A DNA stretch of 64,000 nt from Candidatus Wolfebacteria bacterium GW2011_GWB1_47_1 (GCA_001029635.1 CP011209.1:286866-350865); one strand, 5' to 3'; counted from the first letter of the stretch, positions 8,649 through 60,620 are shown. Translations and numbers: made by a program. Notes: generated by a model not told the origin, from the sequence alone.

Positions 8649-8652
8649 AATT

Positions 8653-13330: not shown

Positions 13331-14491
13331 ATGCGAAAACAAATTTTAAAATCAATTTTATTTCTGGGTACTTTTTTAATGCTGCCTAATTCTTCCCAGG
13401 CTGCGATTATTTTTGAGGATAATTTTGACGACACTCCCAATTGGCAATCGCAGCAGCTTACTTTCGGAGGCGGAGGGATCGCTTGGGGCACGCCAACTTT
13501 CCAGGGAACTTGCATTGGATATTGTCCGCCGCAAAATTGGACTTCATATCGTACTTCGCAATCTCTCTGGACGCCAAATGCTAGAGATACGTATCTTATC
13601 GATTCAAGCGGATCGCGCACAGTTAATGGTAAGGGTTTGACATATAACGTGGAGTCTAGTGGTGAATGGGGAACTTGGGCTGGCGGAGGAATTGATAAAT
13701 ATCTCGGCGTCACCGGTTATCCCGAGCTTTATGTTAGATTCTGGCTGAAGGAGTCGGCTGAATTTTGTTGGGGATCGGAAGCGTTAAATCTCAATGCCAT
13801 GGGAAAGTTAATAAGAATCAGCGCACTAAGACGGGATCCAACTAGTAATCCGAACATTTTCAATCCGCAACTCTATCCTTCATCCGATGTAAGCCCAACG
13901 CTGATTGGGAATGCATATCGCCGATTTCAGCCAAATTATGGCGTGCCTGCTCAATTCGATATGGAAGAAAGATATGCGCCTAATTATGAATATGGACCAC
14001 AGTGCACGTTTGGTCCGCAACCTTCCTCTTGCGCATCGGAAGCTCCCAGCGCGATAACTTTTCCGCATGACAATTCTGGGTATTGCGGCGATGACCAATG
14101 GCATAGCTATGAATATTATGTGAAACTTAATTCAGCCTTGGATGCGACCGATGGAATTTATAAAGCTTGGCTGGATGGAACTTTGGTGGCGCAAAAAAGT
14201 AATATTCCTTGGGTAAAATCCGGCACTGATACTAATGGCACTGCGATGACGTTGGATACTGGTTGGAATTGGGTGATGATCGCTGACAATATCGATTCAA
14301 CCGCTTACGCTAAATCTGACAACGTTGAGATGTCTAGATATATAGACGATGTGGTTATGTATACGCCGATGAACGGTTCTGAAATGGCGTGTGGTGGGGC
14401 ATGTATTGCCGGACGACTGCCGCTAACCTATTTACAATCAGGGCTTGATAGTACCCCTCCCTCCGCCCCGACAGGGCTTAGCATAGAATAG
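13331..14491 (+). CDS. Secreted tag-family protein (jelly-roll), the most divergent tag
   Basis: Signal peptide MRKQILKSILFLGTFLMLPNSSQA. Tail GLDSTPPSAPTGLSIE*. Confidence 0.7.
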   Translation: MRKQILKSILFLGTFLMLPNSSQAAIIFEDNFDDTPNWQSQQLTFGGGGIAWGTPTFQGTCIGYCPPQNWTSYRTSQSLWTPNARDTYLIDSSGSRTVNGKGLTYNVESSGEWGTWAGGGIDKYLGVTGYPELYVRFWLKESAEFCWGSEALNLNAMGKLIRISALRRDPTSNPNIFNPQLYPSSDVSPTLIGNAYRRFQPNYGVPAQFDMEERYAPNYEYGPQCTFGPQPSSCASEAPSAITFPHDNSGYCGDDQWHSYEYYVKLNSALDATDGIYKAWLDGTLVAQKSNIPWVKSGTDTNGTAMTLDTGWNWVMIADNIDSTAYAKSDNVEMSRYIDDVVMYTPMNGSEMACGGACIAGRLPLTYLQSGLDSTPPSAPTGLSIE

Positions 14492-14670: not shown

Positions 14671-15033
14671 ATGAATATACGATCAAAAAAAACAAGGATA
14701 TATCTAGTGGCGATTATGCTCGCGGTAGCTCTGACGGCACTGATCATGACAAACAGGAATGCATCCCGGGAGGAGGGGGGTGAAGCAATATTATCATGGA
14801 ATGCAAATAAGGAAACTGATGTGATAGGGTATCGAGTTTACTACGGAACGGAAAAGCGTACGGGGGAGTGTCCCCTGGGAGGGTATGCGGATAAGATAGA
14901 TGTGGGGAATAGGACGACACATACGGTGACGAATTTGGAAAAAGGAAAGCGATATTATTTCTCTACGACATCATATAATAAAGGAGGAAAGGAAAGCTGC
15001 TTCTCTCAGGAAGTAAGTAAAGAAATAAAATGA
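14671..15033 (+). CDS. Small membrane-anchored protein consisting of one Fn3 domain that lacks the A-strand
   Basis: N-terminal TM or signal anchor, then AILSWNANKETDVIGYRVYYG...GKRYYFSTTSYNKGG. This is a fibronectin-III domain starting at the B-strand. Confidence 0.6.
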   Translation: MNIRSKKTRIYLVAIMLAVALTALIMTNRNASREEGGEAILSWNANKETDVIGYRVYYGTEKRTGECPLGGYADKIDVGNRTTHTVTNLEKGKRYYFSTTSYNKGGKESCFSQEVSKEIK

Positions 15034-15078
15034 TCGTGGGCGGGATCAATAATACAAACACTATAAAACGCAATACAT

Positions 15079-19511: not shown

Positions 19512-20063
19512 ATGATAGAGCACTACACAGAGGCCTTCGTGCTGGACAGGGAGGATTTTAAGGAGCATGACGGCATAGTTCATCTCTATACTGAAGAGTT
19601 GGGTAAGGTGTCGGCGCGAGCGCGGGGGCTAAAGAAAATATTGTCGAAATCAAGCGCACATCTGGAGCCGCTTAATTTTGTTCGGGTAAGACTAATGAGC
19701 ATGAAGAGCGGATACTATCAGATTATCGACGTTATGCCGCATGACACGATCTCGGTACGGGAAAAGAAGAAGGATGTGCGGCGCTGTAGCGTGCTGCTCG
19801 CCATGGCAGAGTTCATTCGGAAGATGACGTATGAATTGCACCCGGATGAGTATCTCTGGGATGTAATGAAGCGACTCGCGGGGGCGGAGGCCGACGAGGG
19901 GGAAATGTACCGGGCGCTCTTGAAGGCATTTGGGTTTGATCCGCAATACGCAACATGTACGGTATGCCAACATCCGGAAGTGAGTCATTTTCTGCACGAT
20001 GATCATGGATTCTATTGTCGTCACTGTGCTTCAAAAATGTCCGCAAATGCGATAGTATTATAA
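19512..20063 (+). CDS. recO: DNA repair protein RecO (compact form)
   Basis: N-terminal OB-fold pattern (IVHLYTEELGKVSARARG...LEPLNFV). C-terminal Cys4 zinc motif CTVCQH...CRHC. Confidence 0.55.
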   Translation: MIEHYTEAFVLDREDFKEHDGIVHLYTEELGKVSARARGLKKILSKSSAHLEPLNFVRVRLMSMKSGYYQIIDVMPHDTISVREKKKDVRRCSVLLAMAEFIRKMTYELHPDEYLWDVMKRLAGAEADEGEMYRALLKAFGFDPQYATCTVCQHPEVSHFLHDDHGFYCRHCASKMSANAIVL

Positions 20064-20068
20064 TATAT

Positions 20069-21892
20069 ATGTCACTGGAAGAACTTGAGAAAAAATTATA
20101 CGGCATCGACCGCAAGGACGATGGAGAAGATCGGGTAGCACCGCAGGTAAAGCACCAAGAAGAACCGAGTGTTCAGACCACATGGGGAGATGATCTGGCG
20201 GGAGAAGATGTGGTTGCGAAAAAAATGGGGAAGGGAACAAGGGCGTTCATTATCAGCTCGATTTTTTTGCTGTTGGGAATTGGAGGAGTTTCGTATTACT
20301 ACATTTCGGAATATTACAAAACGAAGGATCTTCTTTTTGCGGCGCAGACCGAGGATAGCGTTCTGATCGCGCATCCGTTCGAAATAACCGTCGATGTTGA
20401 GAATAGATCGCAGGCGATATTACGTGAGGCAAAGATATTCATAAAGCTTCCGGATGGAGTTATTGGAATAGGAAATGACACGGAACGACAGACGATTGAA
20501 GAAGCGATCGGAGACATGGATCCGGGAGAGGTTCTGGAAAAGACCTACTCCGTAGTGGTTGTAAAGGATGCTGAGTCGACAAAAAAGCTTGACGTAAATT
20601 TTTCGTATCTGCCGCAAAATATCAATACACGCTTTGAGCGGGAAGAAACATTGGAAGTGCATGTGGGAGAGCCGGCAATAGCGCTTGATTTTACGACGCC
20701 ACAAAATGTCTTTAGTACGGAAAACTTTGATATTGGCATGCGCTACCGCAACATTTCCGACATGGAATTTAAGGACGTTGTAGTAAAATTAATCATGCCT
20801 GACAAGGTTGCCCTAAAAAGTGCCTCCCGAGAGCCGGACAGTGGCACCACCTTATGGAAGATAGATGCATTAGCTTCGCAGACAGAACAGATAATAGCGG
20901 TAAAAGCGGCCTTTGAAGGGGCAAATCAGGAATTTTTTGAATTAAGATCACAGGTGGTGGTTTTAGTGAATGGCAAAGAGTACGTGATCAACGAAAAGAC
21001 GGCAAATCTGGGGATAGCGGCATCGCCCTTGAGTCTGGATATCGTTGCGAATAGCAACCCGTCCTACATCGCACGGCCGGCAGAGGCAATTACCTATACG
21101 TTAAAATATAGGAACAATACGGATGTTGCATTAAGCGATGTCATCATGAAGGCGAAGATCAAGGGCGAGATGTTTGACCTCGCGACAGTGCAGAGCCGTG
21201 GGTCGTTTGATTCAGTCACAAACACGCTCATGTGGAACGCATCGGGTGTGCCGGAGTTGAAGCTGATCGAACCGGGGAGAGAGGGGTCGGTGGACTTTGT
21301 CATACAGACCAAAGGTGCGTATCCGATAAAACGAATGTTCGATAAAAACTTTACACTTAAGGTTGATGGGGAGATTAATTCACCGACGGTTCCTTATAAT
21401 GTTGCAAGTGATAAAACGATCGGATTTGCAAGCAATGAAACAAAGGTGAGCGGGAGTATTGGGATTGAAGCGAGAGTTGCGCAGACCTTGGGAGCGCAAG
21501 TTCCAGAGGTAAACAAGCCATTGAAGTATACGGTCACGATGACGATTAAAAACTACGCTACCGATATGCGCGACGTAAGGATAACAAGTTCATTGCAACC
21601 AGGAGTTAGGTGGACTGGAGTTGTAAAGAGCAATAGCGGGGCAGTGCCGACCTATAACGATCGGACAGGCGAGATCAATTGGACAATCGACAAGATTATT
21701 GCGACAAAGGGGGTAATCGGGACGCCTACGGAAGCAACCTTCCAGGTCGAAATAACGCCAAACGTGACGCAGATAGGAGGATCGATCGAAGTGACAAAAG
21801 ATATTAATCTAGTGGCAACGGATGACTTTACCGGTCAAACGGTCTATCAGAATACAAAGGGTCTGCAGGTGGCGGGAGTCATAAAACAATAG
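20069..21892 (+). CDS. Hypothetical large membrane-anchored, beta-rich extracytoplasmic protein
   Basis: ORF track 20015..21892; ATG at 20069. A single TM (AFIISSIFLLLGIGGVSYYYI) is followed by ~520 aa of repetitive beta-strand-like sequence. Confidence 0.5.
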   Translation: MSLEELEKKLYGIDRKDDGEDRVAPQVKHQEEPSVQTTWGDDLAGEDVVAKKMGKGTRAFIISSIFLLLGIGGVSYYYISEYYKTKDLLFAAQTEDSVLIAHPFEITVDVENRSQAILREAKIFIKLPDGVIGIGNDTERQTIEEAIGDMDPGEVLEKTYSVVVVKDAESTKKLDVNFSYLPQNINTRFEREETLEVHVGEPAIALDFTTPQNVFSTENFDIGMRYRNISDMEFKDVVVKLIMPDKVALKSASREPDSGTTLWKIDALASQTEQIIAVKAAFEGANQEFFELRSQVVVLVNGKEYVINEKTANLGIAASPLSLDIVANSNPSYIARPAEAITYTLKYRNNTDVALSDVIMKAKIKGEMFDLATVQSRGSFDSVTNTLMWNASGVPELKLIEPGREGSVDFVIQTKGAYPIKRMFDKNFTLKVDGEINSPTVPYNVASDKTIGFASNETKVSGSIGIEARVAQTLGAQVPEVNKPLKYTVTMTIKNYATDMRDVRITSSLQPGVRWTGVVKSNSGAVPTYNDRTGEINWTIDKIIATKGVIGTPTEATFQVEITPNVTQIGGSIEVTKDINLVATDDFTGQTVYQNTKGLQVAGVIKQ

Positions 21893-29232: not shown

Positions 29233-30156
29233 TTATTGCACCGTAAAAACAGGAAATGATTCACGGGGTTTGCGAATAACAAAGAGATAGTCTTCAATGC
29301 GAGTAAGCGCCGGCCCTCCATCGACAAAGGTAAGAAAGCGCGAGATTGATTGGAGATTTCCTTGTGCAACGAAAGAAACCGAGCCATCATGTGCATTACG
29401 CGCATGCCCTGTGAGTTGATAGCGTTCGGCAAGTTCTTGTATGAAATAGCGGAAGCCAACACCTTGTACCGCGCCGACAAATGTCCCGGCGACTTCGAGC
29501 GTATGCTCGAGATCGTCGGGAGAAAGCGCATCGTCGGCCAAATAGCCATTAATACGGGTACGTTTGAGTGCAGTAAGATGTGCGCCGGTACCTAGGAGAG
29601 TCCCTAGGTCATTGCCGAAGGTCCGAATATAGTAGCCCGACGACACGGCAAGGCGAATGACGAGCCGCGGGTAATCGTAGGAGATAATTGCATAGTCATG
29701 GAGCGCGACTGTTTTTGCGCGCGACACGGCAAGTGCGAGAGCTTCTTCTTTGGTTGCTATGTCGCGTAGGCGCTTACCGAATATTTTTTTGGCGGAATAG
29801 ACGGGTGGTACCTGAGTGCGTTCTCCGACGAAGTTGGCTTCGATTGCTGTCGTGATTTTTTCGAGCGAGGGCTGATACTCGGATGACGATCGGGTAATCG
29901 TACCGGTATGGTCAAAGGTGTCGGTTGATGCGCCAAGTTCAATCGTCGTAATATATTCCTTGGTGCTGGCGGTGAGGAGCGTGTGGAGCTTTCGGGTAAA
30001 TTTTCTGCCAACAGCAACGACCATGAGTCCTTCGGCAAATGGATCGAGCGTACCGGCATGGCCAAGCTTGGGGGCATTAAGCGTACGTTTAAGAAACCCA
30101 AGAATATGTTTGTTAGTCCATCCGATGGGTTTGAAGAAGAGAAATATGCCCTGCAT
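29233..30156 (-). CDS. truB: tRNA pseudouridine-55 synthase TruB fused to a C-terminal acylphosphatase-like domain
   Basis: GHAGTLDPFAEGLMVV catalytic motif. C-terminal VQGVGFRYF...GHARNAHDGSV is an acylphosphatase signature. Confidence 0.75.
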   Translation of the reverse strand: MQGIFLFFKPIGWTNKHILGFLKRTLNAPKLGHAGTLDPFAEGLMVVAVGRKFTRKLHTLLTASTKEYITTIELGASTDTFDHTGTITRSSSEYQPSLEKITTAIEANFVGERTQVPPVYSAKKIFGKRLRDIATKEEALALAVSRAKTVALHDYAIISYDYPRLVIRLAVSSGYYIRTFGNDLGTLLGTGAHLTALKRTRINGYLADDALSPDDLEHTLEVAGTFVGAVQGVGFRYFIQELAERYQLTGHARNAHDGSVSFVAQGNLQSISRFLTFVDGGPALTRIEDYLFVIRKPRESFPVFTVQ

Positions 30157-38798: not shown

Positions 38799-40481
38799 TC
38801 ATATTTCGTTTTTCGAGTCCGTTGGCCATTCGATCGGGCCGGTCACCCCCTCGACTTCATCAAACGTGGTCATGCCAGCGATGACCTTGAGAATGCCGTC
38901 CTCCTGCATGGTTGTCATGCCGTTTTCTCGGGCAAACTTGAGGAAGGTCTGTTCGCCTGCCATATTCGCGATCAATTCTTCAAGTCCAGGTTGCTTAGTA
39001 AAGAGCTCGTAGATGGCGACGCGCCCCTTGTATCCGGTATTGTTGCAGACATCGCATCCGATGGGAGCGAATAGAGTCGGCGTGTTATAAGTTGCGCGGT
39101 TGACGCGAGTGGGGAGCGCGGCGACAAACTGGTCAAACTTGCTCTTCAGATCGGCATCGAGCGGCATTGGTGTCTTGCAGTTAGTGCAGAGGCGGCGGAT
39201 GAGTCGTTGCGCGATGACGAGCGTAAGTGCCGGTCCGATGGACTGCGGCTTCACGTTTAGATCGAGCAAGCGGGGGACGGCTCCCGCGGCAGAGTTGGTA
39301 TGCAGTGTCGAGAAGACCAAATGTCCGGTGAGGGCCGCTTGGATGGCGATCTCTGCGGTTTCCTGGTCGCGTATTTCTCCGACCAGAATAACGTCAGGGT
39401 CTTGGCGCATTAATGAGCGAAGACCATTGGCAAAGGTGTATCCGCTTGCATTGTTGATCTGCGTCTGCTCGATTCCCTCGAGGTGATATTCGATTGGATC
39501 TTCAATGGTGATGATCTTTTCGGTCGGGTCCGCCTTTGCGCCGAGAAACGTATAGAGCGTGGTCGTCTTACCGGATCCGGTAGGCCCGGTATTGAGAATC
39601 ATGCCATTGGGACGGTTAAGCTCGACATTGATGATCGCAAGGTCGTCCTCGCGCAACCCAAGCTGCGGGAGCGTGATCTTGATCGCATCAGGGTCGAGTA
39701 GGCGCATAACGGCGACTTCGCCAAACTGGGCAGGGGCGATGGCAACGCGGACCTCGACATCTTTCTGGGGAAAGCGGATGGTGAAGCGGCCATCCTGCGC
39801 TTCCTTGGTAACGTTTAGTTTCAAACTTGAAAGAAGTTTGATGCGGGTCAGGAGAAACGGATAAAAATCCTTCGTAAAGGTAAAAATATCATGGAGATTA
39901 CCATCGATGCGTAGGCGTAGCTTTCCATCATGTTCACTTGGCTCAAGATGGATGTCAGATGCACGGGTGCCCATGGCACCGCGAGAAATGATCTCAAGCA
40001 CTTCGCCTGCCTTACTGGGGGAGAACTCTTCTTCGCTAAGAACTTCTTTGAGACCAGCGATTGAATTGAGTCGATCAGCGAGTTCGATGACGCGCTGTTC
40101 GATCTGCACCTTGCCAGTGATCTTCTCGGTTTCCTTTGCGACATAGCGATAATAGCTCAAGGCATAGTCCATACTGGATGGACTGACGATATAATCGGTA
40201 ACGGTATATCCCTTTGCAACAAGGTCATCCAGTGCTTGCTTTGTTTTTGCGCGGGTCGGATCCAGAGTGACAACGGCGAGCTGGTTCACCTTGCGCTCGA
40301 TGGCAGCAACAGATGCTTCGCGGGCAGTCGTTTCGGGAATCACCGAAAGAGCCTCGATATTGATCGGGGTTTTTGTAAGGGTTATATACTTTTTATTGAG
40401 CGCAACGGCACGATGCTGCGCTTCGCGCTCCTGCGCTTCCTTTTTGATGCGATCTAACTTTTGGGTTAATGTTTCTTCCAT
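38799..40481 (-). CDS. pilB: Type II/IV secretion system ATPase (PilB/GspE family)
   Basis: N-terminal GSPII_E_N region, Walker A GPTGSGKTTTLY, and the Asp/His boxes of secretion ATPases. Confidence 0.9.
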   Translation of the reverse strand: MEETLTQKLDRIKKEAQEREAQHRAVALNKKYITLTKTPINIEALSVIPETTAREASVAAIERKVNQLAVVTLDPTRAKTKQALDDLVAKGYTVTDYIVSPSSMDYALSYYRYVAKETEKITGKVQIEQRVIELADRLNSIAGLKEVLSEEEFSPSKAGEVLEIISRGAMGTRASDIHLEPSEHDGKLRLRIDGNLHDIFTFTKDFYPFLLTRIKLLSSLKLNVTKEAQDGRFTIRFPQKDVEVRVAIAPAQFGEVAVMRLLDPDAIKITLPQLGLREDDLAIINVELNRPNGMILNTGPTGSGKTTTLYTFLGAKADPTEKIITIEDPIEYHLEGIEQTQINNASGYTFANGLRSLMRQDPDVILVGEIRDQETAEIAIQAALTGHLVFSTLHTNSAAGAVPRLLDLNVKPQSIGPALTLVIAQRLIRRLCTNCKTPMPLDADLKSKFDQFVAALPTRVNRATYNTPTLFAPIGCDVCNNTGYKGRVAIYELFTKQPGLEELIANMAGEQTFLKFARENGMTTMQEDGILKVIAGMTTFDEVEGVTGPIEWPTDSKNEI

Positions 40482-49899: not shown

Positions 49900-50454
49900 A
49901 TGGATACCAAGCAAAGGATATCAAATTATTCGATGCTACTGGGGATGTGCGTGGTAGGAAACTCCGGCAAGTGGCGGGATGAGGTTTGTCATCTCGATTT
50001 CGACACTGCGGTTGAGCAGTATCGGGTGTTCAAGAAGGCGGGATACAGGGATGTATCGCTGGTCCCGACCTATTTCGTGATGGATGTGTACGGGGAGTAT
50101 CACGTGGTGACCGCAGGGAACCCCATTGCAGTTGCTGAGCATCCGATTCCGGCGCGGTATTCGCGCGCCGACCTCAATCCTGGAATATCGGTATATGACT
50201 ACGACAGAGACGTACTCAAGCGGGGAATATCCTTCGTAGAAGGGCTGATTTCTGTGGCTGTTTCTTTACTCCTCTTCGGTGGATCGATTGCAGCGTTCAT
50301 GCGGATCTTGAGGTGGCTGGTAGGACCACTCGAACTGGGCTACGGACTGTTGGTTTGCGTATTGGTACTTACCGGCTTCGCCATGATTGTAAGAAGGTGG
50401 TTTTGTCTGTGTCTGCAGGTAGGGGAATGGTTCGTGGGGCATAGCGAAAAGTGA
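49900..50454 (+). CDS. Paralogous membrane-protein family member A (unknown function)
   Basis: Shares P[AS]RYSRADL.PGI.V.YDRDVLKR followed by 2 TM helices with the next two genes. Confidence 0.5.
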   Translation: MDTKQRISNYSMLLGMCVVGNSGKWRDEVCHLDFDTAVEQYRVFKKAGYRDVSLVPTYFVMDVYGEYHVVTAGNPIAVAEHPIPARYSRADLNPGISVYDYDRDVLKRGISFVEGLISVAVSLLLFGGSIAAFMRILRWLVGPLELGYGLLVCVLVLTGFAMIVRRWFCLCLQVGEWFVGHSEK

Positions 50455-50577
50455 AAGCGGGTGAACCTCGCATAAGGCAAGGGGCTATCGAAAGGCGGCC
50501 TCTTTTTTTGTTGACAAAAATAGTAAAAATATATTAGATAAGAAACAGTACTAACAAAACAGAGAAAAGGAGGATAC

Positions 50578-51399
50578 GTGAATAACATGTTGGAGGCAAA
50601 GGCTCAGGGCGGAGGCAAGGTATATTTGAATATCTCGGAAGATACATGCATGAGGTTTGGCTTCAAGCATGGTCAGCGCATTATCGATCCGCATTATGAC
50701 AAGGGTGTCGTCATGGGGGTTGCGCCTGCAGAGCCGGGAGCGTCGGATGTGCTCTGGTTCGCGTTCGACTGCGATGAAGGCGAGATTCGTTACTGGGATG
50801 AGCACGTGGATCTCGTACAGGAAGGGTTTAAGCGCATCGATCTCACAACCGAAGAAGTACTCAACGAGACGGTAGTGTGCTTTCGGGTGACTGCCACAAC
50901 GAACGGAAAGGCGGAGTCAGTGATCGTGCGCGACGTGGTGGTCGCTGCGGCACAGGGGAAGGTGTTTCTCCGGGCAGGGCATAAGGAGTTCATGACGAAT
51001 CCGGTCATGGTGCTTTTCGATAAGAGTGGTGATCGCGGCGATGTGTTCGGGGACAAGTTTATCGAGACGGCGGAGGTGCATGGTGCGCCGATTCCTTCGC
51101 GGTATTCGCGCGCCGACCTTTATCCCGGTATTACGGTTAAAGCCTACGATCGTGACGTCCTCAAGCGCAGAGTAACCTGGGTACAGGTTGTAGTCGTAAT
51201 GCTCGTTGCGCTTGTGATTATGGCAGCAGGCATGGGGATGGCGGCGGCTCTGGTGATCGTATTGAGTAGGTTCTTTGATCCGTTATTTGCTAGCCTGGGC
51301 CTGTTCGTAGCGGTTAGCATACTGCTCCTGAGTAAAAAAGATCAGACGCTAATAATGGCCTGCGGCATGTGGGTTGCGGGCATCCAGGAAGGCGATTAG
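50578..51399 (+). CDS. Paralogous membrane-protein family member B (unknown function)
   Basis: TNGKAESVIVRDVVVAAAQGKVFLRAGH...PSRYSRADLYPGITVKAYDRDVLKRR plus 2 TM. Own terminator and TTGACA promoter upstream. Confidence 0.55.
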   Translation: MNNMLEAKAQGGGKVYLNISEDTCMRFGFKHGQRIIDPHYDKGVVMGVAPAEPGASDVLWFAFDCDEGEIRYWDEHVDLVQEGFKRIDLTTEEVLNETVVCFRVTATTNGKAESVIVRDVVVAAAQGKVFLRAGHKEFMTNPVMVLFDKSGDRGDVFGDKFIETAEVHGAPIPSRYSRADLYPGITVKAYDRDVLKRRVTWVQVVVVMLVALVIMAAGMGMAAALVIVLSRFFDPLFASLGLFVAVSILLLSKKDQTLIMACGMWVAGIQEGD

Positions 51400-51519
51400 A
51401 ACGGTATGAAGCCGCGCGTACAAACGCGCGGCTTTTTTGTTGTTGACAAAAAAGCAGAAAAAAGTGTTAACTAATACCAGTTATTTAAACGCAACACAAA
51501 AATACGCACGGGAGGAGCT

Positions 51520-52119
51520 ATGGGAGAATGGTTACCGGGAGCCGCGATAGGTTCGAGTTTCGAGCATTGTTTGGAAGTATGCGCCTGTACGAACGGAAAG
51601 GCGGAACGCGTGGTGGTAATCGATGATGTGGCTGTCGCAGCCGAGCAGGGTAGGGTGTTCCTACGCGCTGGGCATACGATGTTCTATGTCGAACCGGTCA
51701 TGCTTTTCCTGAACAATTGGGGAGAGTATTTTGTGGAAACTAGCGACGGCAAGGTGGATATCGGTAGGGTTTATGAGGGAGTGGTCCCGTCTCGGTACCA
51801 CCGGGCGGATATATGGCCCGGCATCAAGGTGCGTATCTATGATCGGGATGTGCTGAAGCGTAAACGCGCAACTCAGGCAGAGAATTTCTGCGTGGTATTT
51901 CTGGAAATGGCACTCGCAGCGTTAACGGTCTTCCCGGCCGTCCAGGCCGTGATGAATGTAGGGGAGATGCTTCACGTGGGAATCGGAGCGAGGAGCCTCA
52001 TGGTCGTTGCGATCGGAATGCTTATGCGCAAGCCCGCATTGCGCTGGATGGAAGATGTCGACAGGAGAGTAGAAAGGTTCATGGGCATCCCCTCGATCGA
52101 AGAGTGGAAAGCCAACTAA
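51520..52119 (+). CDS. Paralogous membrane-protein family member C (unknown function)
   Basis: TNGKAERVVVIDDVAVAAEQGRVFLRAGH...PSRYHRADIWPGIKVRIYDRDVLKRK plus 2 TM. Confidence 0.55.
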   Translation: MGEWLPGAAIGSSFEHCLEVCACTNGKAERVVVIDDVAVAAEQGRVFLRAGHTMFYVEPVMLFLNNWGEYFVETSDGKVDIGRVYEGVVPSRYHRADIWPGIKVRIYDRDVLKRKRATQAENFCVVFLEMALAALTVFPAVQAVMNVGEMLHVGIGARSLMVVAIGMLMRKPALRWMEDVDRRVERFMGIPSIEEWKAN

Positions 52120-54918: not shown

Positions 54919-54942
54919 TTTGGTACGTGATATACTAACAAG

Positions 54943-56208
54943 ATGAAATCAAATCGCGGATTTTCATTATTGGAAACTCTCCTATATCTCGGGATTTTTG
55001 CTATCGTAGGCGGTTCGCTGTTCGGTATCCTTACTAATGTTGTAAGGATGACGACACGGGAAATATCGGGAGATGAAATCGCGGGGCAGTTGCAGTTTAC
55101 GATAGGAACCATTACACGACTAGTACGAGAATCATCGGCAATAGAGATGGCGACAAGCACGGCGACAACGACCATTAAGCTAAGAATGACAAATAGTATG
55201 CAGGATCCCACATGCATTTCGCTGGTTGGCGGGGTATTGAAGCTTGCGCAAGGCCCCGATCCGTTTCAACCGCAAAATTGTACTGCAACGACCACGGATA
55301 TTACGACCAGTAAGGTTGTTGTAGATAGTGCGTTGTTTAAGCGCCTGGAATTTCCGGGCGGGCACGATCAGATCGCGATCGATCTGCAGATTTCCAATAC
55401 GGGAATAGGGACAAATAAGATATCACGAGCGCTGCGCTCGGGCGTTTCCCGCGCATCTGCGGCAACATTTGACGCAGACCTGCTTCCCAATGCCGATGCG
55501 GTATATGAAGTGGGGTCATCCATTCCCGGAGGAAAACGATGGAAGAACGCTGCATTTTCTGGCAACCTTACCGTTGCAGGGAATATGGGGGTTGGAGTGA
55601 CTAATCCAGGGACAAAACTGACCCTCTCGGGAGGAGACGATGCGGCTAGTACGGGAATATTGCAATTGATAACCGCAGGCGGAACAAATCTTAAGTTGGG
55701 AGGTAATACGACATATAGTTGGATACAAAGTCACGCTACGAAGCCATTGTACATCAATCAATTGGGGAATAATGTGGTTCTTAACTTAGGCGCAGGGAAT
55801 GTAGGTATTGGTACGGCGGGGCCGACGTATAAGCTACAGGTGAATGGCAATGCGGCAAATACGACCGGCGTATGGGCGGTTGCGTCGGATGAACGACTAA
55901 AGCGTGACATACTACCGATCGAAGGGGCATTGCAGATGGTCACGGCGCTGCAGGGAGTGGGATTTAATTGGAGGGACGACATAAAAAACGAGCAGTTTGG
56001 ACAGGTTATGGGCTTTATCGCGCAAGATGTCGAAAGGGTGTTGCCGCAATGGGTAAAGACCGATGCGGATGGATATAAACGCATCGAAGCAATCGGCATA
56101 GATGCATTGCTTGTAGAAGCGATCAAAGAGCAACAACAGCAGATACTGAATCAGAAAAAGGAAATAGAGGTACTTAAAGAAATGATGATGCAGATACAGA
56201 ATAGATAA
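54943..56208 (+). CDS. Type IV pilin-like (class III signal peptide) protein with a C-terminal endosialidase-type intramolecular-chaperone domain
   Basis: MKSNRGFSLLETLLYLGIFAIVGG is a prepilin leader with G|F and E5. Tail-fibre-like VGIGT..P..KL.V.G motifs. C-terminus GFIAQDVERVLPQWV...LLVEAIKEQQQQI resembles Peptidase_S74 chaperone regions. Confidence 0.6.
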   Translation: MKSNRGFSLLETLLYLGIFAIVGGSLFGILTNVVRMTTREISGDEIAGQLQFTIGTITRLVRESSAIEMATSTATTTIKLRMTNSMQDPTCISLVGGVLKLAQGPDPFQPQNCTATTTDITTSKVVVDSALFKRLEFPGGHDQIAIDLQISNTGIGTNKISRALRSGVSRASAATFDADLLPNADAVYEVGSSIPGGKRWKNAAFSGNLTVAGNMGVGVTNPGTKLTLSGGDDAASTGILQLITAGGTNLKLGGNTTYSWIQSHATKPLYINQLGNNVVLNLGAGNVGIGTAGPTYKLQVNGNAANTTGVWAVASDERLKRDILPIEGALQMVTALQGVGFNWRDDIKNEQFGQVMGFIAQDVERVLPQWVKTDADGYKRIEAIGIDALLVEAIKEQQQQILNQKKEIEVLKEMMMQIQNR

Positions 56209-56210
56209 GG

Positions 56211-56246
56211 AAAAACCCGCCCGTCAGCTGACGGGCGGGTTTTTAA
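56211..56246 (+). terminator. Rho-independent terminator
   Basis: acccgcccgtcagctgacgggcgggt plus T5. Confidence 0.7.
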
Positions 56247-56296
56247 TTATAAGAAGTAATATGATATAGTAAGGGTACTACAAGTCAAATATACAT

Positions 56297-57526
56297 ATGA
56301 AAATACATGACATTGCAATAAAAATAATCCAGGATTCGCGAGGGCAAGATACGCTCGAGGCGACGATTTCCTGGGATAATAATGGACAGGTCATGTCCGC
56401 AAGTGCAAGTGCTCCGAGTGGGAAGAGTACAGGGACACACGAAGCATTCGTACTTGAGCCATCAAAAGCATTGGCGATGTTCGATACCACCAAGCAGGAC
56501 ATTCTTACTAAGGAGTTTGCAAGTCAAAAAGAATTCGATGATTTTTTGATCGCGATCGACGGCACTGAGAACAAGGGGCGATTGGGAGGAAATCTTATTT
56601 TGGTGTTGTCGCTGGCTTTTGCGCGCATAAAGGCGCAGGAAGAGGGGAAGGAATTATTTCGCTATATCCGAGACATTAGCGGATTGGAGATCGTCGGCAA
56701 TCGCATGGTGCGATACCCGATCTTTAACGTGATCAACGGAGGAGCGCATGCAGAAAATCAGCTAGACTTCCAGGAATTTCAGGTTATTCCAATGGGAGAA
56801 GGTTTTGCAGAAGCACTGCGCGTCGGTAAGGAATTTTATGAAAAGCTAGGCGAAGCAATACGGCAGAAGTTTGGAGAAGAACATGTGACGCTGGGAGATG
56901 AAGCAGGATACTCCGCGCCATTTACAAGTAACGAAGAAGCGATTGCGCTGATGAAGTCGGTTATTGCGGCAGGAAACTTTCCATTGCGCATCGGCCTTGA
57001 TGTTGCGGCAACGGGATTCTTCCAGGACGGAGGATATATGGTAGAAGGCAGACGCCTTTCATCACAGGAGTTGTTGGGCATGTATTACGACCTGATCTAT
57101 CGATACAACATATTGTCGCTCGAGGATCCATTCGAAGAAGAGGCATTCGAGGACTTCAAGACGCTGTATCAGCGATTAAACCAAGGGAACTTGGACACGA
57201 TGCTGATAACCGATGATCTTACGACAACGAATCCAAAAAGATTCGAACATGCGATAACGGAACAGGTAGGCAATACGATTCTGGTAAAGTTGAACCAGAT
57301 TGGCTCATTGTCTGAAACATTACGTGTCGTGCGTATGGCATATAGCAATAATTGGAAGGTCATTATATCGCACCGCAGTGGCGAGACGATGGATGATTTT
57401 ATTGCCGATCTCGCAGTTGCCGTCGGTGCATGGGGATTGAAGTCTGGTGCGCCGGGCAAGTCGGAGCGATTGGTTAAGTACGAACGCGTCATTGCGATCG
57501 AAGAAAAAATAAAACAAGGAAAATAA
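56297..57526 (+). CDS. eno: Enolase
   Basis: C-terminal SHRSGETMDDFIADLAVAVGAWGLKSGAPGKSERLVKYER signature and an N-terminal enolase barrel. Confidence 0.85.
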   Translation: MKIHDIAIKIIQDSRGQDTLEATISWDNNGQVMSASASAPSGKSTGTHEAFVLEPSKALAMFDTTKQDILTKEFASQKEFDDFLIAIDGTENKGRLGGNLILVLSLAFARIKAQEEGKELFRYIRDISGLEIVGNRMVRYPIFNVINGGAHAENQLDFQEFQVIPMGEGFAEALRVGKEFYEKLGEAIRQKFGEEHVTLGDEAGYSAPFTSNEEAIALMKSVIAAGNFPLRIGLDVAATGFFQDGGYMVEGRRLSSQELLGMYYDLIYRYNILSLEDPFEEEAFEDFKTLYQRLNQGNLDTMLITDDLTTTNPKRFEHAITEQVGNTILVKLNQIGSLSETLRVVRMAYSNNWKVIISHRSGETMDDFIADLAVAVGAWGLKSGAPGKSERLVKYERVIAIEEKIKQGK

Positions 57527-57590
57527 CAAAAGAGGCGCAAGCCTCTTTTGTTATGTTTACCTAATTATTTTTGTGATATACTAAATACAT

Positions 57591-59606
57591 ATGCAGACAA
57601 AGAATATCATTCATCTGTCAGGAGTCGCAATTGCGATCATACTATCGTTGGTCATTGCGCAAGAGGGATTCGCATGGACGAGTCCAACGAGCAACCCACC
57701 GATAAGCACACCGGCAATAGCGGTATCAGGAAGCAGTGTCGGTATTGGTACTGTAAACCCGCAAGAAAAACTCGAAGTCATCGGAAACATTCGATTTCCG
57801 GATAACACTGCATGGACGCTGACCAAGCGTGCAGACAATGTACAACCCTTGATTCGCACATCTCGTACGGATAATTCTCAGGTGGGGTTATTTCAAATCA
57901 ATGGATGGGGAGACTATTCTTTTGACCGCTCACTCGGCATCGGCTATGACCTCGCAGGAGGGACTATGGGGGCAGGTAATGTATTCATTGCTGGACGACA
58001 GACGATCGGCACCGCAACGCCTGACGCAAACTATCGCCTCACCACCAGCGGTGGCGGTATTAAGGCAGAAAACAACAGCGCAACCCAGCCTGCCGGCTAT
58101 TTCAATAATGCAGGCGGAGGCCCTGCCATTACCGTCGGCACGGGAGGTCTTACGTTGGGAGGTGTGAATCGCACAACATGGGGGAGTGGAGACAATCTCG
58201 GCAACCATACCGCAACCGCTGCCTTGAATATGTCAGGCAATGATATTACCGCATTGCGTAACCTAACCCTGAGTGGGACTATGACCCCGAACGGGGTTGG
58301 ATTTGATTCGGGTCTCACCGGCGACCGTGCCTATCAGTTCGGCTATCAGGAGGGAGGCGCGTGGGCGTTCCCGTATCCTGATCTGATCTTTGGCTATCAT
58401 ACCGGTGTTAAAATCGGTGGATATTATGGCTATGGCGGAACCCGTTTTTATAACGACCATCCATCTCGCGCTGGCGCAACGGAGATCCTTTCCGTAGGCA
58501 ATGGCGACAACCACGTACGTGTTGCGAATAATCTGTATGTTACGGGCAATGTCGGCATCGGCACATCCGCGCCTGCCGTAAAGCTGCATGTGAACGGATC
58601 AGTGCGAGGCGATCAGGCTGGCGCATTGCGCATCGACAGCGGAAGCGGAGTGCTTGATATTGGCGCGATGAACGCAGGCTATGCGCATTTCCAGACCGAT
58701 CGACCCTCATTCTATTTGAATAAAACAACAGCCATAGATGGCGCATTGACCAACTATTCCAATGCGTATCATTTGGCGCAGAGCGGCGTCTCTTATTTGA
58801 ATGGCGGCAATATCGGTATCGGTACGACAGATCCAACTTCCCAAATGGCGGGAACGCAAGGTATCGGTATCTTCAAGAATAACTACCCCGCGATCGGATT
58901 CAAGAACGATTCGTCTTCATGGCTTTGGTATGCCAGTGGTGTAACATTTCGCTTGTGGAATGCCTCTGCGGGAGATTTATTGACCGCGAATACTTCCGGC
59001 AATGTTGGGATTGGTACCATAACTCCAGCGCAAAAATTAGATGTAAATGGATATATTAAAGGGTCTGGATTATGTATTGGAACCGACTGTAAGACGGCAT
59101 GGAATCAGGTAGTTGTAGTCCCCGTGGCAACTGCATCAACAACATGCATTACTCCGAATTATTGCATCACTCCGGTAACGGACATTATCTATAATCTAGC
59201 TGCGGTACCGAATACATTGCGTTCGCAAAATACACCAGGAACAACGAATGAATCGAACGTTATTTGTTTGAGTGTGAATTATTGTATCGTGGCTGCGACC
59301 AATAAGATTTACCTATTAGATGCGGCAACGAATGCAATACGCTCACAGAACACTTCCGGAACGGTCGGGAAGTCAAAAATCATTTGCCTTTCGACTAATT
59401 ATTGCGTCAGTACGGGAACGGATATTATCTATACGCTCGATGCGGTAACGAATATATTGCGTTCTCAGCCTGCTCCAGGCGTAAGCGCTACGTCACCGTT
59501 TACTTGTAGTACCGTGAATTATTGCGTCATATTAGGAACAAATAAGACGTATGTGTATGATGCGCAGGTAAACACACTGCGTTCTCAAAATACTCCCGGA
59601 ACGTAA
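57591..59606 (+). CDS. Secreted tail-fibre-like repeat protein with five C-terminal ~37-aa Cys-containing repeats
   Basis: Signal peptide, then repeated (V/I)GIGT..P..KL.VNG motifs shared with 54943..56208. C-terminal repeats C..NYC......IY.LDA.TN.LRSQNT.GT x5. Confidence 0.55.
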   Translation: MQTKNIIHLSGVAIAIILSLVIAQEGFAWTSPTSNPPISTPAIAVSGSSVGIGTVNPQEKLEVIGNIRFPDNTAWTLTKRADNVQPLIRTSRTDNSQVGLFQINGWGDYSFDRSLGIGYDLAGGTMGAGNVFIAGRQTIGTATPDANYRLTTSGGGIKAENNSATQPAGYFNNAGGGPAITVGTGGLTLGGVNRTTWGSGDNLGNHTATAALNMSGNDITALRNLTLSGTMTPNGVGFDSGLTGDRAYQFGYQEGGAWAFPYPDLIFGYHTGVKIGGYYGYGGTRFYNDHPSRAGATEILSVGNGDNHVRVANNLYVTGNVGIGTSAPAVKLHVNGSVRGDQAGALRIDSGSGVLDIGAMNAGYAHFQTDRPSFYLNKTTAIDGALTNYSNAYHLAQSGVSYLNGGNIGIGTTDPTSQMAGTQGIGIFKNNYPAIGFKNDSSSWLWYASGVTFRLWNASAGDLLTANTSGNVGIGTITPAQKLDVNGYIKGSGLCIGTDCKTAWNQVVVVPVATASTTCITPNYCITPVTDIIYNLAAVPNTLRSQNTPGTTNESNVICLSVNYCIVAATNKIYLLDAATNAIRSQNTSGTVGKSKIICLSTNYCVSTGTDIIYTLDAVTNILRSQPAPGVSATSPFTCSTVNYCVILGTNKTYVYDAQVNTLRSQNTPGT

Positions 59607-59751
59607 ATCATCGTATGTGTGAGGTTTGTTCGCGATTGGCATCAAATGGGCTTTCGCGTCGATCTGGGGCCTGGTAAGGCCCCTTGCTTTTTTTGGGCAT
59701 TTTCCGTACACTATCTGCACATTCCTTTAGTAATAAGGAATTTATTAATTT

Positions 59752-60489
59752 ATGGATAATAAAATAACCACAGAAGCAGTCGAGGGGATGACCCACACCG
59801 ACGAGATCGATGTCGACATGAACCTGATCAAGGAAATGGCCGACAATGGGTTGTTGTATGGACACAAGAAACAGCGGACTCATCCGCGTTTTAAGCAGTT
59901 CATCTACACCACTCGTAATGGTGTCGAGATCATCGACTTGGCGAAAACGTCGAAAAAGATCGACGAAGCAGTAGCGTTTTTGAACGCACAACTGAAAGAG
60001 AACAAAACCGTACTCGTGGTCGGGACTCAGGCAGCGAGCTGGGACGCGGTTGAGTCATTTGCGAAGAAATTCGACATGCCGTACGTAAAGAACGGTTGGA
60101 TCGGCGGACTCGTCACCAACTTTAAAGTCGTCGGACAGCGTTTGGACTATCTCCGCAAGGCACTTGTGTCTATTGAGAAGGGCGAATTCGACAAGTACAC
60201 TAAGAAGGAGCGCGTGACCATTAACCGAAAGATCGACAAGATGAAGATCATGTTCGAGGGAATGGACAATTTGACCAAGACCCCGGACGTCATGTTCGTC
60301 ATCGACGGTTCACTCCGCAATCACATCACTGCGATCAAGGAGGCTGCAACGTTGAAGATCCCGGTAGTTGCCATCATCGATAGTGATGACAATCCCGATC
60401 TGGTAACGTACCCGATCCCGGCAAATGACCATGCCAAGTTGAGCATCACTTGGATGTTGAACCATCTCGGCGATAGGCTTAAGGTATAA
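59752..60489 (+). CDS. rpsB: 30S ribosomal protein S2
   Basis: LLYGHKKQRTHPRFKQFIYTTRNGVEIIDL and later S2 motifs. Confidence 0.9.
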   Translation: MDNKITTEAVEGMTHTDEIDVDMNLIKEMADNGLLYGHKKQRTHPRFKQFIYTTRNGVEIIDLAKTSKKIDEAVAFLNAQLKENKTVLVVGTQAASWDAVESFAKKFDMPYVKNGWIGGLVTNFKVVGQRLDYLRKALVSIEKGEFDKYTKKERVTINRKIDKMKIMFEGMDNLTKTPDVMFVIDGSLRNHITAIKEAATLKIPVVAIIDSDDNPDLVTYPIPANDHAKLSITWMLNHLGDRLKV

Positions 60490-60495
60490 GCTAAA

Positions 60496-60620
60496 ATACG
60501 TGAGATTTGCGAACTACTTTGTTGCGGGCCCCTGCCGACTCGGTCGATGTGCAGCTAGCACACCCCCTCGTCGGCTTTCCCGCGCCGCGTATTTCATCAA
60601 ATCTCGCGTATTTTTTAAAA
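60496..60620 (+). repeat. ~125-nt GC-rich rod-like hairpin element plus T-run (copy 1), between rpsB and tsf
   Basis: Outer stem acgtgagatttg / caaatctcgcgt. Core gttgcgggcccctgccgactcggtcgatgtgca...ttcccgcgcc. Ends ttttttaaaa. A paralogous copy lies at 63136-63260. Confidence 0.55.

What the first reader, a model, noticed from the sequence alone, without database searches (positions are those of the whole stretch)
54943..59606. Pilin-like and secreted tail-fibre-like proteins with endosialidase-chaperone-type motifs flanking enolase
54943..56208 has a bona fide type IV prepilin leader (GFSLLE). It also has repeated VGIGT..P..KL.VNG motifs and a C-terminal segment resembling the auto-cleaving intramolecular chaperone of phage tail spikes (GFIAQDVERV...LLVEAIKEQQ). 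57591..59606 shares the VGIGT motifs behind a Sec signal. It ends in five 37-aa C..NYC repeats. This may be a pilus-tip adhesin or fibre pair built from phage-tail-fibre parts. The pilB ATPase is encoded at 38799.
Basis: partly seen in the sequence, partly recalled or inferred. Interest (0 to 1): 0.6.

Follow-up and report, generated by a model that had tools for sequence, protein, structure and literature searches.

The report
Pilin fused to phage-like fibre
An ultrasmall, probably host-dependent bacterium (Candidatus Wolfebacteria) encodes a type IV pilin whose tail end is a phage-tail-fibre-like trimeric spike with a self-removing folding chaperone, and next to it a secreted fibre made of the same parts; together they look like an exchangeable host-recognition kit.

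Summary
ORF1 (54943..56208) has a canonical prepilin leader (MKSNRG|FSLLE) and Pfam N_methyl above threshold. A predicted pilin fold covers aa 9-170. One Bdellovibrio-MAT-type beta-helix unit follows (aa 206-314), then a C-terminal Peptidase_S74 chaperone (53 bits) with the SDxxxK dyad (S315, K320). ORF2 (57591..59606) has a Sec-type signal and four fibre "capping" motifs. Its tip has four 40-aa CxxxNYC repeats, not five of 37.

The context is chromosomal housekeeping genes, not a prophage. The PolA-pilin-enolase order is conserved in Ca. Wolfebacteria.

The ~205-aa pilin module defines a family found here almost only in Patescibacteria (819 clusters). Lengths run from 194 to 1742 aa and the C-termini are highly variable. 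In ORF1's relatives aa 206-284 is hypervariable and the S74 module has been swapped. A Sec-signal fibre gene lies within 3 kb downstream of such pilins in 12 of 62 loci and upstream in none.

Best reading: a modular minor pilin that displays a trimeric, self-processed fibre, probably at a pilus tip, for host-surface binding, with a partner secreted fibre. Tip location, trimer and ligand are inferred. The pilin+S74 architecture was already listed in a 2021 database survey (29 proteins) but has not been characterised.

The parts
54943..56208 (+). ORF1, 421 aa: modular type IV (pre)pilin with a fibre unit and an S74 chaperone
54943..54960 (+). Class III signal leader MKSNRG. Predicted prepilin-peptidase cleavage lies after G6, giving mature F+1 and E+5.
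   Evidence: Sequence. PF07963 at 22.4 bits. F7, L9 and E11 are invariant in 21 family members.
54943..55557 (+). Pilin carrier module, aa 1-205: alpha1 helix 9-63, beta-sheet 64-169, conserved junction SRASAATFDADLLP...RWKN, and a C91/C113 pair
   Evidence: AF2 pLDDT above 90 for aa 10-170. Foldseek finds GspJ/XcpW/EpsJ minor pseudopilins and S. sanguinis PilB. 819 clusters in the 1.84-billion library. Alignment A3.
55558..55884 (+). Fibre unit, aa 206-314. It is bounded by capping motifs at aa 213-226 and 285-298. Aa 206-284 is hypervariable among close relatives.
   Evidence: The A1 profile matches Bdellovibrio MAT beta-helix Bd2133 (8ond) at E 4.4e-26 over positions 207-311. Identity to relatives is 19-34% here, against 66-89% in the pilin part. 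Low pLDDT in the monomer model.
55885..56205 (+). Peptidase_S74 intramolecular chaperone, aa 315-421, with the predicted self-cleavage dyad S315/K320 (SDERLK) and a C-terminal helix at 386-420
   Evidence: PF13884 at 53.1 bits. Motif. Phage S16 gp37 chaperone 6f45 at E 1.6e-8. Foldseek MyRF ICA 7dc3 at E 2e-5, plus 3gud and 3gw6. pLDDT above 90.
56205..56250 (.). Perfect palindromic hairpin flanked by A and T runs, directly after ORF1 (terminator-like on both strands)
56297..57526 (+). Enolase (housekeeping gene). It lies between the two fibre genes and is probably not part of the system.
   Evidence: Enolase_C 263 bits and Enolase_N 88 bits. Position conserved in relatives.
57523..57554 (.). 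Hairpin between enolase and ORF2
57591..59606 (+). ORF2, 671 aa: Sec-signal, MAT-like fibre without an S74 domain
57591..57674 (+). Predicted Sec signal peptide, aa 1-28, cleaved GFA|WTSPTSNPP. The site and the mature N-terminus are conserved in related fibres.
   Evidence: Sequence. Related N-termini in L007, L009 and L017 and in P0121. No signal-peptide predictor was run.
57675..59060 (+). Fibre body, aa 29-490. The N-terminal ~200 aa are shared with Wolfebacteria fibres. Units are bounded by capping motifs at aa 50, 321, 408 and 472.
   Evidence: ORF1 aa 208-302 aligns to ORF2 aa 314-419 at 30% identity, E 3e-6. Coverage map. o2N hits in L007 and L008.
59136..59603 (+). Tip: four 40-aa repeats (CxxxNYC ... 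IYxLDAxTNxLRSQ), preceded by a C495/C500 pair. No relative was found elsewhere.
   Evidence: Negative searches.
59666..59683 (+). GC-rich hairpin plus T-run after ORF2
38799..40481 (-). PilB-type assembly ATPase, the only other type IV pilus gene in the window
   Evidence: T2SSE 384.8 bits, MshEN weak

Best explanation
ORF1 is a modular minor type IV pilin of a Candidatus Wolfebacteria (Patescibacteria) chromosome.

Shown:
- A class III signal with G-1, F+1 and E+5.
- A 200-aa pilin module whose closest solved folds are GspJ-type tip pseudopilins.
- One beta-helix unit homologous to those of Bdellovibrio MAT fibres.
- A C-terminal S74 intramolecular chaperone with an intact Ser-Lys dyad.

Inferred mechanism:
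- The prepilin is cleaved after G6.
- Three copies are brought together by the S74 domain, which templates the intertwined triple beta-helix (aa ~206-314). The S74 domain then cuts itself off before S315 and leaves.
- The resulting trimer of pilin modules is taken up by the PilB-driven machinery and sits at the tip of the filament, as the CofB/TcpB trimers do.
- This exposes the hypervariable segment (aa 206-284), which binds a surface structure of the host cell, most likely a glycan.

ORF2 is a Sec-exported fibre built from the same units. It has no S74 and carries a unique Cys-containing 4 x 40-aa tip. It is a functional partner of the pilin. Either it is a second, separately anchored recognition fibre, or it docks onto the pilin.

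Tips are exchanged by recombination at the conserved junction and capping motifs. This gives each strain its own specificity.
For: - Domains.
- Structure: the pilin and S74 parts have pLDDT above 90, and the fibre part is low, as expected for an obligate trimer modelled as a monomer.
- Catalytic motif SDERLK at 315-320. It matches the SDxxxK consensus shown experimentally to self-cleave in Bd3182 (PMC10769870).
- F+1 and E+5 are invariant in the family. From general knowledge of type IV pilins, E5 matters for filament assembly rather than for cleavage.
- Chromosomal, syntenic locus in Wolfebacteria.
- Family size and variability: 819 clusters; lengths 194-1742 aa; 82 tip clusters among 151 members with an extension of at least 120 aa; 133 of 174 members have capping motifs.
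- Mosaicism: the hypervariable segment is 19-34% identical to relatives while the pilin part is 66-77%. The S74 domain is 85% identical in some relatives and 24-32% in others with the same pilin.
- Pairing with a downstream Sec fibre in 12 of 62 loci, against 0 of 66 upstream. It is adjacent without enolase in L009 and L046.
- Precedents: modular pilins and trimeric tip pilins (PMC8179133).
Against: - No other pilin, PilC, PilD, PilM-O or PilT gene lies in the 64-kb window. PilB is 15 kb away.
- Across 80 related loci the pilin is usually an orphan. Only 5 have another prepilin within 5 kb and 6 have PilB within 8 kb.
- GspJ-type pilins normally occur once per tip complex, whereas an S74 fibre must be a homotrimer. 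The geometry is untested.
- The fold match to GspJ is modest (TM about 0.4).
- Each of the three genes is followed by its own hairpin, so co-transcription of ORF1 and ORF2 is unlikely.
- ORF2 is absent from the same locus in one Wolfebacteria genome.
- Trimerisation, cleavage, pilus incorporation and ligand were not and could not be tested here.
Confidence: 0.6

Rival explanations
1. ORF1 is never built into a long pilus. The prepilin-type N-terminus serves only as an export signal and membrane anchor, or forms a short pseudopilus stub. The trimeric fibre then stands on the cell surface, like the N-terminally anchored MAT fibres of Bdellovibrio.
For: The gene is an orphan, away from other pilus genes, here and in most relatives. 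A homotrimeric fibre fits three membrane helices as well as it fits a pilus tip. MAT fibres work from the cell surface.
Against: A full 200-aa pilin globular domain is conserved at 40-78% identity across hundreds of clusters. F+1 and E+5 are invariant. That is more than an anchor would need. A PilB ATPase is present.
Confidence: 0.25
2. ORF1 and ORF2 are functionally independent surface proteins that only happen to be neighbours. The shared motifs reflect a common building kit, not cooperation.
For: Separate hairpin terminators follow each gene and a housekeeping gene lies between them. ORF2 is absent at this locus in Wolfebacteria RIFOXYD12.
Against: The association is directional and recurrent. 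A Sec fibre lies within 3 kb downstream in 12 of 62 loci, in none upstream, and in only one locus further away. It is immediately adjacent in L009 and L046. In other lineages there is a conserved cassette of short pilin, two membrane proteins and a giant fibre.
Confidence: 0.3
3. The region is a degraded prophage and the two ORFs are leftover tail-fibre genes.
For: PHROG tail-fibre profiles match ORF1 at E about 1e-25. Phage S16 gp37 is a PDB hit.
Against: No phage structural, lysis or integration gene lies nearby. The flanks are PolA, enolase, rpsB and tsf. The locus is syntenic across Wolfebacteria genomes. The matches cover only the C-terminal fibre and chaperone part. The N-terminus is a pilin, and the best profile hit is a cellular fibre. 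There is no GC anomaly.
Confidence: 0.02
4. The S74 module gives the pilus a peptidase activity against external substrates, as the 2021 survey of modular pilins suggested.
For: The domain is classed as a peptidase family, and the paper lists the architecture under 'peptidase activity' (PMC8179133).
Against: In the characterised S74 domains discussed in the papers read here (phage spikes, MyRF, Bd3182), the domain cleaves its own chain and is then released (PMC10769870; PMC8326128 abstract). That all characterised S74 domains act once only, in cis, rests on my own knowledge. Here it sits in the same place, directly after a beta-helix unit with the SDxxxK motif.
Confidence: 0.03

Closest known systems
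Modular type IV pilins (S. sanguinis PilB/PilC; architecture IPR012902-IPR030392 listed by Raynaud et al. 2021, PMC8179133)
   Same: An N-terminal pilin carrier module has an extra functional module grafted on, expected to be displayed at the pilus tip. The exact pilin+S74 domain pair is listed in their Dataset S1 (29 proteins). A Ca. Wolfebacteria protein is among the representative proteins of Fig. 8.
   Different: The characterised examples carry monomeric vWA or lectin modules. Here the module is an obligate-trimer fibre whose folding domain is discarded. The survey read S74 as a peptidase function. No member with this architecture has been studied.
Bdellovibrio bacteriovorus MAT (mosaic adhesive trimer) fibres, S74 and non-S74 subfamilies (Caulton et al. 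2024, PMC10769870; PDB 8ond, 8ojn, 8oml, 8ol4, 8on4)
   Same: The beta-helix units are homologous (profile E 4e-26 to 4.5e-5). The loop motifs are of the capping type. The S74 has SDxxxK. An invariant N-terminal carrier is combined with highly variable tips. Both S74 and non-S74 versions occur in one organism that lives on other bacteria.
   Different: The MAT carrier is a ~130-aa beta-rich domain behind a Sec signal. ORF1 uses a type IV pilin instead. The capping motif here (VGIGTxxPxxxL) is one residue longer than the published consensus V-G-G/N-pi-x-x-P-x-x-x-L. ORF1 has a single unit, whereas MAT fibres are 600-1100 aa.
Trimeric tip minor pilins of type IVb pili, CofB and TcpB, with their secreted partners CofJ and TcpF (PMC6048534, PMC9565799)
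   Same: This is a working model only. A large minor pilin trimerises through its C-terminal domains, caps the filament and serves as the docking site for a separately secreted protein encoded nearby.
   Different: No sequence or fold relationship was detected. CofB and TcpB have no S74 and no beta-helix. Docking of ORF2 on ORF1 is untested.
Phage tail fibres and spikes with a C-terminal intramolecular chaperone (K1F endosialidase, T5 pb1, S16 gp37; also MyRF)
   Same: The S74 fold and the Ser-Lys motif match, and the domain sits directly after a triple beta-helix.
   Different: The gene is cellular, chromosomal and syntenic. The N-terminus is a pilin rather than a virion-attachment domain.

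Membership tests
Type IV pilin (class III signal peptide, PF07963 / IPR012902) | Short basic leader ending in Gly(-1), followed by about 20 hydrophobic residues with Phe+1 and Glu+5 | tested here: met
   MKSNRG|FSLLETLLYLGIFAIVGG. PF07963 at 22.4 bits against a cutoff of 21.2. F7 and E11 are invariant in A3. The A3 profile hits the alpha1-N of PilA-type pilins in the PDB.
Type IV pilin (class III signal peptide, PF07963 / IPR012902) | Long N-terminal alpha helix packed on an antiparallel beta-sheet | tested here: met
   The AF2 model has helix 9-63 and strands 64-169 with pLDDT above 90. Foldseek finds GspJ/XcpW/EpsJ and PilB of S. sanguinis, with probability 0.8-1.0 and TM about 0.4.
Type IV pilin (class III signal peptide, PF07963 / IPR012902) | Processing by a prepilin peptidase and assembly by a PilB/PilC machine | not testable with these tools
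   PilB is present at 38799..40481. No PilD or PilC lies in the window. The rest of the genome was not available.
Peptidase S74 / intramolecular chaperone auto-processing domain (PF13884) | Profile match above the curated threshold, and the fold | tested here: met
   53.1 bits against a cutoff of 22. Foldseek 7dc3 at E 2e-5, plus 3gud and 3gw6. 6f45 at E 1.6e-8.
Peptidase S74 / intramolecular chaperone auto-processing domain (PF13884) | Catalytic Ser-Lys dyad in an SDxxxK motif at the start of the domain, directly after a trimeric beta-helix | tested here: met
   S315-D-E-R-L-K320. The preceding 207-311 segment matches MAT beta-helices.
Peptidase S74 / intramolecular chaperone auto-processing domain (PF13884) | Trimerisation-dependent self-cleavage and release | not testable with these tools
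   Needs expression of the wild type and the S315A mutant. Only monomer prediction was available.
Bdellovibrio-type MAT fibre family | Beta-helix units with capping loops and a variable C-terminal tip (S74 or other) | tested here: met
   ORF1: profile E 4.4e-26 to Bd2133 and hits to four other MAT chains. ORF2: shares the unit with ORF1, has four motifs and has a non-S74 tip.
Bdellovibrio-type MAT fibre family | Conserved ~130-aa beta-rich N-terminal domain right after a Sec signal peptide | tested here: not met
   ORF1 has a pilin module instead. For ORF2 the N-terminal ~200 aa are conserved only among Patescibacteria fibres. Homology to the Bdellovibrio domain could not be tested because no sequence or structure of it was at hand.
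Prophage tail-fibre gene | Location within a cluster of phage structural and lysis genes | tested here: not met
   The flanking genes are PolA, enolase, rpsB, tsf, RuvB and YidC. Synteny is conserved in Wolfebacteria.
Diversity-generating retroelement target | A template repeat near the variable region, and a reverse transcriptase | tested here: not met
   There are no direct repeats other than the ORF2 tip repeats in 54700-59800. No RT domain appeared among the window ORFs scanned.

The most novel reading that the evidence does not exclude
The pilin and the Sec fibre form a two-part, phage-like host-recognition organ on a pilus. The trimeric pilin caps the filament. The secreted fibre docks onto it through its conserved mature N-terminus (WTSPxxNPP), as CofJ does on CofB. 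In some Patescibacteria the two parts are fused (pilin plus long fibre). In others they are split (short pilin, two small membrane proteins, giant fibre). Tips are swapped by recombination at the capping motifs. On this reading, episymbiotic ultrasmall bacteria choose their hosts with a retractable 'tail fibre set'.
Probability: 0.15. Interest if true: 0.75.

Novelty: new variant of a known kind. Interest (0 to 1): 0.5.

Why it matters
All cultivated Patescibacteria live attached to other microbes, and how they recognise a host is largely unknown. Type IV pili are implicated in Saccharibacteria (PMC9894109, PMC12206443). A pilin family that carries exchangeable, phage/MAT-type trimeric tips would give a concrete, testable candidate for the host-specificity determinant in the large Paceibacteria-type lineages, especially as it is often paired with a secreted fibre. 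The hypervariable segment could serve as a marker for host range in metagenomes. It would also add a mechanistically distinct class to the modular pilins: an obligate trimer folded by a disposable chaperone. It would extend the Bdellovibrio MAT principle to a second group of bacteria that live on bacteria.

Tried and rejected
- **Prophage origin.** Rejected on context and synteny.
- **Low-complexity coincidence of the VGIGT motifs.** Rejected. All six six-frame matches in 64 kb lie in the two ORFs. Profile hits to solved fibres reach E 4e-26.
- **DGR-type diversification.** No template repeat and no RT.
- **Structure of ORF2.** The monomer AF2 model was poor (pLDDT 54, tip below 40), so no fold search was made.
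- **ORF2 tip.**
  - No Pfam or NCBIfam family. The only hit was a sub-threshold Utp8 propeller.
  - No PDB sequence hit.
  - No homologue in the 5.8-billion protein search. That search did not even return the identical P0121, so it is a weak negative.
  - Nothing in viral contigs.
  - In the metagenome scan, only the same gene.
- **Tandem Repeats Finder.** It found nothing at the DNA level. The repeat finder did find the repeats.
- **Small membrane proteins.** The two proteins of the distant four-gene cassette have no counterpart in the window.
- **Cluster look-up.** It gave no public names for relatives.
- **Literature.** Searches for pilin plus tail fibre in Patescibacteria or Parcubacteria found nothing.
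Full report
**1. What is in the sequence**

- Two + strand ORFs lie at the stated coordinates: ORF1 at 54943..56208 (421 aa) and ORF2 at 57591..59606 (671 aa). Enolase (56297..57526) lies between them.
- The surroundings are housekeeping genes:
  - SMC, RNase III, NusB, RuvB, YidC, a Jag/R3H protein and PolA upstream.
  - rpsB, tsf and tRNAs downstream.
- GC content shows no island around the ORFs.
- The only other type IV pilus gene in the 64 kb is a PilB-type ATPase at 38799..40481 (-) (T2SSE, 385 bits).
- A motif scan found no second prepilin. Pfam scans of the remaining large ORFs found no PilC, PilD, PilM or PilT.

**2. ORF1 anatomy**

- **N-terminus.** It reads MKSNRG|FSLLETLLYLGIFAIVGG, a canonical class III signal with Gly-1, Phe+1 and Glu+5. 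Pfam N_methyl is just above its cutoff (22.4 against 21.2 bits). NCBIfam sees the ComGE minor-pilin N-terminus, below its cutoff.
- **Pilin module.** An AlphaFold2 model built on 90 homologues is confident (pLDDT above 90) for aa 10-170: a long helix (9-63) packed on a beta-sheet.
  - The nearest solved folds for this part are GspJ-type minor pseudopilins (XcpW, EpsJ, GspJ) and the modular pilin PilB of S. sanguinis.
  - The match is modest (TM about 0.4).
- **S74 chaperone.** The model is also confident for aa 320-420.
  - Foldseek matches this part to the intramolecular chaperone/autocleavage domains of MyRF (E 2e-5), phage GA-1 and K1F.
  - Pfam Peptidase_S74 scores 53 bits against a cutoff of 22.
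  - The domain starts with S315-D-E-R-L-K320. This is the SDxxxK Ser-Lys motif shown to self-cleave in Bdellovibrio Bd3182 (PMC10769870).
- **Fibre unit.** Between the two lies aa 206-314, poorly modelled as a monomer.
  - It is bounded by two 'capping' motifs: GNMGVGVTNPGTKL (213-226) and GNVGIGTAGPTYKL (285-298).
  - A profile of the ORF1 family hits the crystal structures of Bdellovibrio MAT fibres best of all PDB entries. Bd2133 scores E 4.4e-26 over profile positions 207-311, and four further MAT chains also hit.
  - Phage S16 gp37 and MyRF follow.
- **Summary.** ORF1 is a pilin, one MAT-type beta-helix unit and a disposable S74 chaperone. After both predicted cleavages the mature protein would be aa 7-314.

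**3. ORF2 anatomy**

- **Signal.** It has a hydrophobic signal with a GFA|W site. The site and the following WTSPxxNPP are conserved in related fibres. No signal-peptide predictor was available.
- **Capping motifs.** There are four, at aa 50, 321, 408 and 472.
- **Shared unit.** ORF1 aa 208-302 aligns to ORF2 aa 314-419 at 30% identity, E 3e-6.
- **Tip.** It is preceded by a C495/C500 pair and consists of four repeats, not five. The period is exactly 40 aa (120 nt, 59145-59599), not 37.
  - Each repeat carries CxxxNYC.
  - The repeats are about 50% identical to each other, far above shuffles.
- **No S74.** ORF2 has no S74 domain and no Pfam family.
- **Tip homology.** The tip has no detectable relative anywhere I could search, except the same gene on another contig. 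The big protein search failed to return even that copy, so it is a weak negative.
- **Structure.** The monomer prediction was poor and was not used.

**4. Relatives and context**

- **Taxon and synteny.** Full-length relatives of ORF1 (50-67% identity) and the gene order RNase III-NusB-RuvB-YidC-Jag-hypotheticals-PolA(-)-pilin-enolase recur in Ca. Wolfebacteria genomes and metagenome contigs. The locus is therefore a fixed chromosomal site.
- **Family size.** Searched alone against 1.84 billion representatives, the 205-aa pilin module finds 819 clusters at E up to 1e-3 and 127 at E up to 1e-30. It is N-terminal in all of the best 150, in proteins of 194 to 1742 aa.
- **Taxonomic range.** A scan of one genome per species found 103 relatives. 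Almost all come from Patescibacteria: Wolfe-, Harrison-, Colwell-, Jorgensen-, Lipton- and Brennerbacteria, Paceibacterota, and bins labelled Saccharibacteria. One short contig is labelled Caldithrix and several records are named only 'bacterium'.
- **C-terminal variability.** Among 174 members fetched:
  - the C-terminal extension has a median of 315 aa;
  - 133 carry at least one capping motif;
  - 24 carry S74;
  - the last 120 aa of the 151 members with an extension of at least 120 aa fall into 82 unrelated clusters.
- **Mosaicism.** Against its closest relatives ORF1 is a mosaic:

| Segment | Identity to relatives |
|---|---|
| Pilin part | 66-77% |
| Junction | 66-89% |
| aa 206-284 | 19-34% |
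| S74, P0002 and P0003 | 85% |
| S74, P0005 to P0007 (same pilin) | 24-32% |

  This is the signature of tip swapping.
- **ORF2 variant.** A second contig (L087) is 99.96% identical to the window from 58005 onward and unrelated before that. The break lies inside the Ile-Gly-Thr codons of a capping motif. This is either recombination at the motif or an assembly chimera. I cannot tell which.

**5. The pair**

- A non-pilin, signal-bearing fibre ORF lies on the same strand within 3 kb downstream of the pilin in 12 of 62 loci that have enough sequence. None lies upstream in 66 loci, and only one lies further away.
- In Wolfebacteria it comes after enolase (L001, L007, L008). In L009 and L046 it follows the pilin with no enolase gene between them.
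- In L008 the pilin lacks S74 and the secreted fibre has it, the reverse of the window.
- In Liptonbacteria and others, a four-gene cassette recurs:
  - a short pilin of the family;
  - a cupredoxin-like membrane protein;
  - a small membrane protein;
  - a 700-2100-aa fibre.
- Fused forms in some genomes and split, adjacent forms in others argue for a functional link.
- Against co-transcription in the window: strong hairpins follow ORF1, enolase and ORF2.

**6. Mechanism**

- **Shown:** the domain composition, the intact catalytic motif, the chromosomal synteny, the family variability and the gene pairing.
- **Inferred:**
  - prepilin cleavage after G6;
  - S74-driven trimerisation of aa 206-314 followed by self-cleavage before S315;
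  - incorporation of the trimer at the tip of a PilB-driven filament, by analogy with CofB and TcpB (as discussed in PMC8179133);
  - binding of a host-surface ligand through the hypervariable segment.
- A trimer cannot be a repeating subunit along a helical filament, so a tip or a membrane location are the only sensible options (inference).
- The main rival is a membrane-anchored fibre that never enters a pilus. The orphan position of the gene supports that rival. The conservation of a complete pilin domain with invariant F+1 and E+5 argues against it.

**7. Comparison and novelty**

- Raynaud et al. 2021 listed the architecture IPR012902-IPR030392 (pilin + S74) in 29 database proteins and took it to suggest peptidase activity. 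The domain pair is therefore not new.
- In the library searched, I found no paper that treats it as a trimeric fibre, describes the Patescibacteria carrier family, or notes the pairing with a secreted fibre.
- The fibre parts are closest to the Bdellovibrio MAT family. ORF1 fails one defining MAT feature, the conserved N-terminal beta-rich domain. I therefore file it as working like a MAT fibre on a pilin carrier, not as a MAT member.
- I rate it a new variant of a known kind, of moderate interest.

Noticed in passing
window 32..14491 (+): Eleven consecutive same-strand ORFs (165-649 aa) have no Pfam hit. Most are mutual paralogues at 27-53% identity; three (3232, 5332, 6927) share little beyond the signal. 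Ten of the eleven share a nearly identical signal peptide (MQKQILK.FFFLAIFFLLPNFSQA|AIIFEDNFDD..DW); the first ORF (32..1078) starts differently. GC is 0.39-0.44, against 0.46-0.52 elsewhere. It looks like an expanded family of secreted proteins.
   Followed up: partly
window 49900..52119 (+): Three tandem hypothetical ORFs (184, 273 and 199 aa) lie between Jag/R3H and PolA. They have no Pfam hit and share an 'SRY.RAD..PGI.V..YDRDVLKR' stretch followed by membrane segments. ORFs of similar size occupy the same position in Wolfebacteria relatives.
   Followed up: partly
L087 1..4314, compared with window 58005..60546: A second metagenome contig carries ORF2 from aa 139 to the end, plus rpsB, at 99.96% DNA identity. 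It has a different signal peptide, one fibre unit fewer and unrelated upstream genes (a TrxB-like protein and a membrane protein). The breakpoint lies inside a capping-motif codon triplet. This is either recombination or an assembly chimera.
   Followed up: partly
L058, L064, L073, L079, L083, L085 (positions); L082 is a variant: A conserved four-gene cassette occurs in Liptonbacteria and other Patescibacteria. It comprises a short pilin of the same family with a Cys-containing knob, a ~185-aa membrane protein with a cupredoxin-like domain, a ~150-195-aa membrane protein (SAVYL..GDIYFGKL.WFP) and a 445-2111-aa fibre, some with S74. In L082 a 326-aa ORF replaces one of the small proteins and the second family was not detected.
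   Followed up: partly
L003-L005 11546..12622: In Ca. Wolfebacteria RIFOXYD12_FULL_48_21 an rve-family integrase/transposase gene is inserted between the pilin and enolase. The same genome has a second pilin paralogue followed directly by a small fibre gene (L009).
   Followed up: no
window 54929..54943: A TATACT box ends 8 nt before the ORF1 ATG and no Shine-Dalgarno-like sequence lies between them. This raises the possibility of a leaderless or near-leaderless transcript. The promoter scan did not call it.
   Followed up: no
window 29233..30156 (-): A TruB pseudouridine synthase carries a C-terminal acylphosphatase domain (PF00708, 62 bits). This is an unusual fusion.
   Followed up: no
window 14671..16785 and 20015..21892 (+): Further predicted surface proteins: fn3 + CHB_HEX_C + PG_binding_1 (568 aa, preceded by a 120-aa fn3 ORF) and a 625-aa DUF11 protein.
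   Followed up: no
(tool behaviour): The word-indexed protein search with the ORF2 tip (aa 495-671) returned nothing, although P0121 in the same database contains the identical sequence. Negatives from that tool for repetitive queries should be treated with care.
   Followed up: yes
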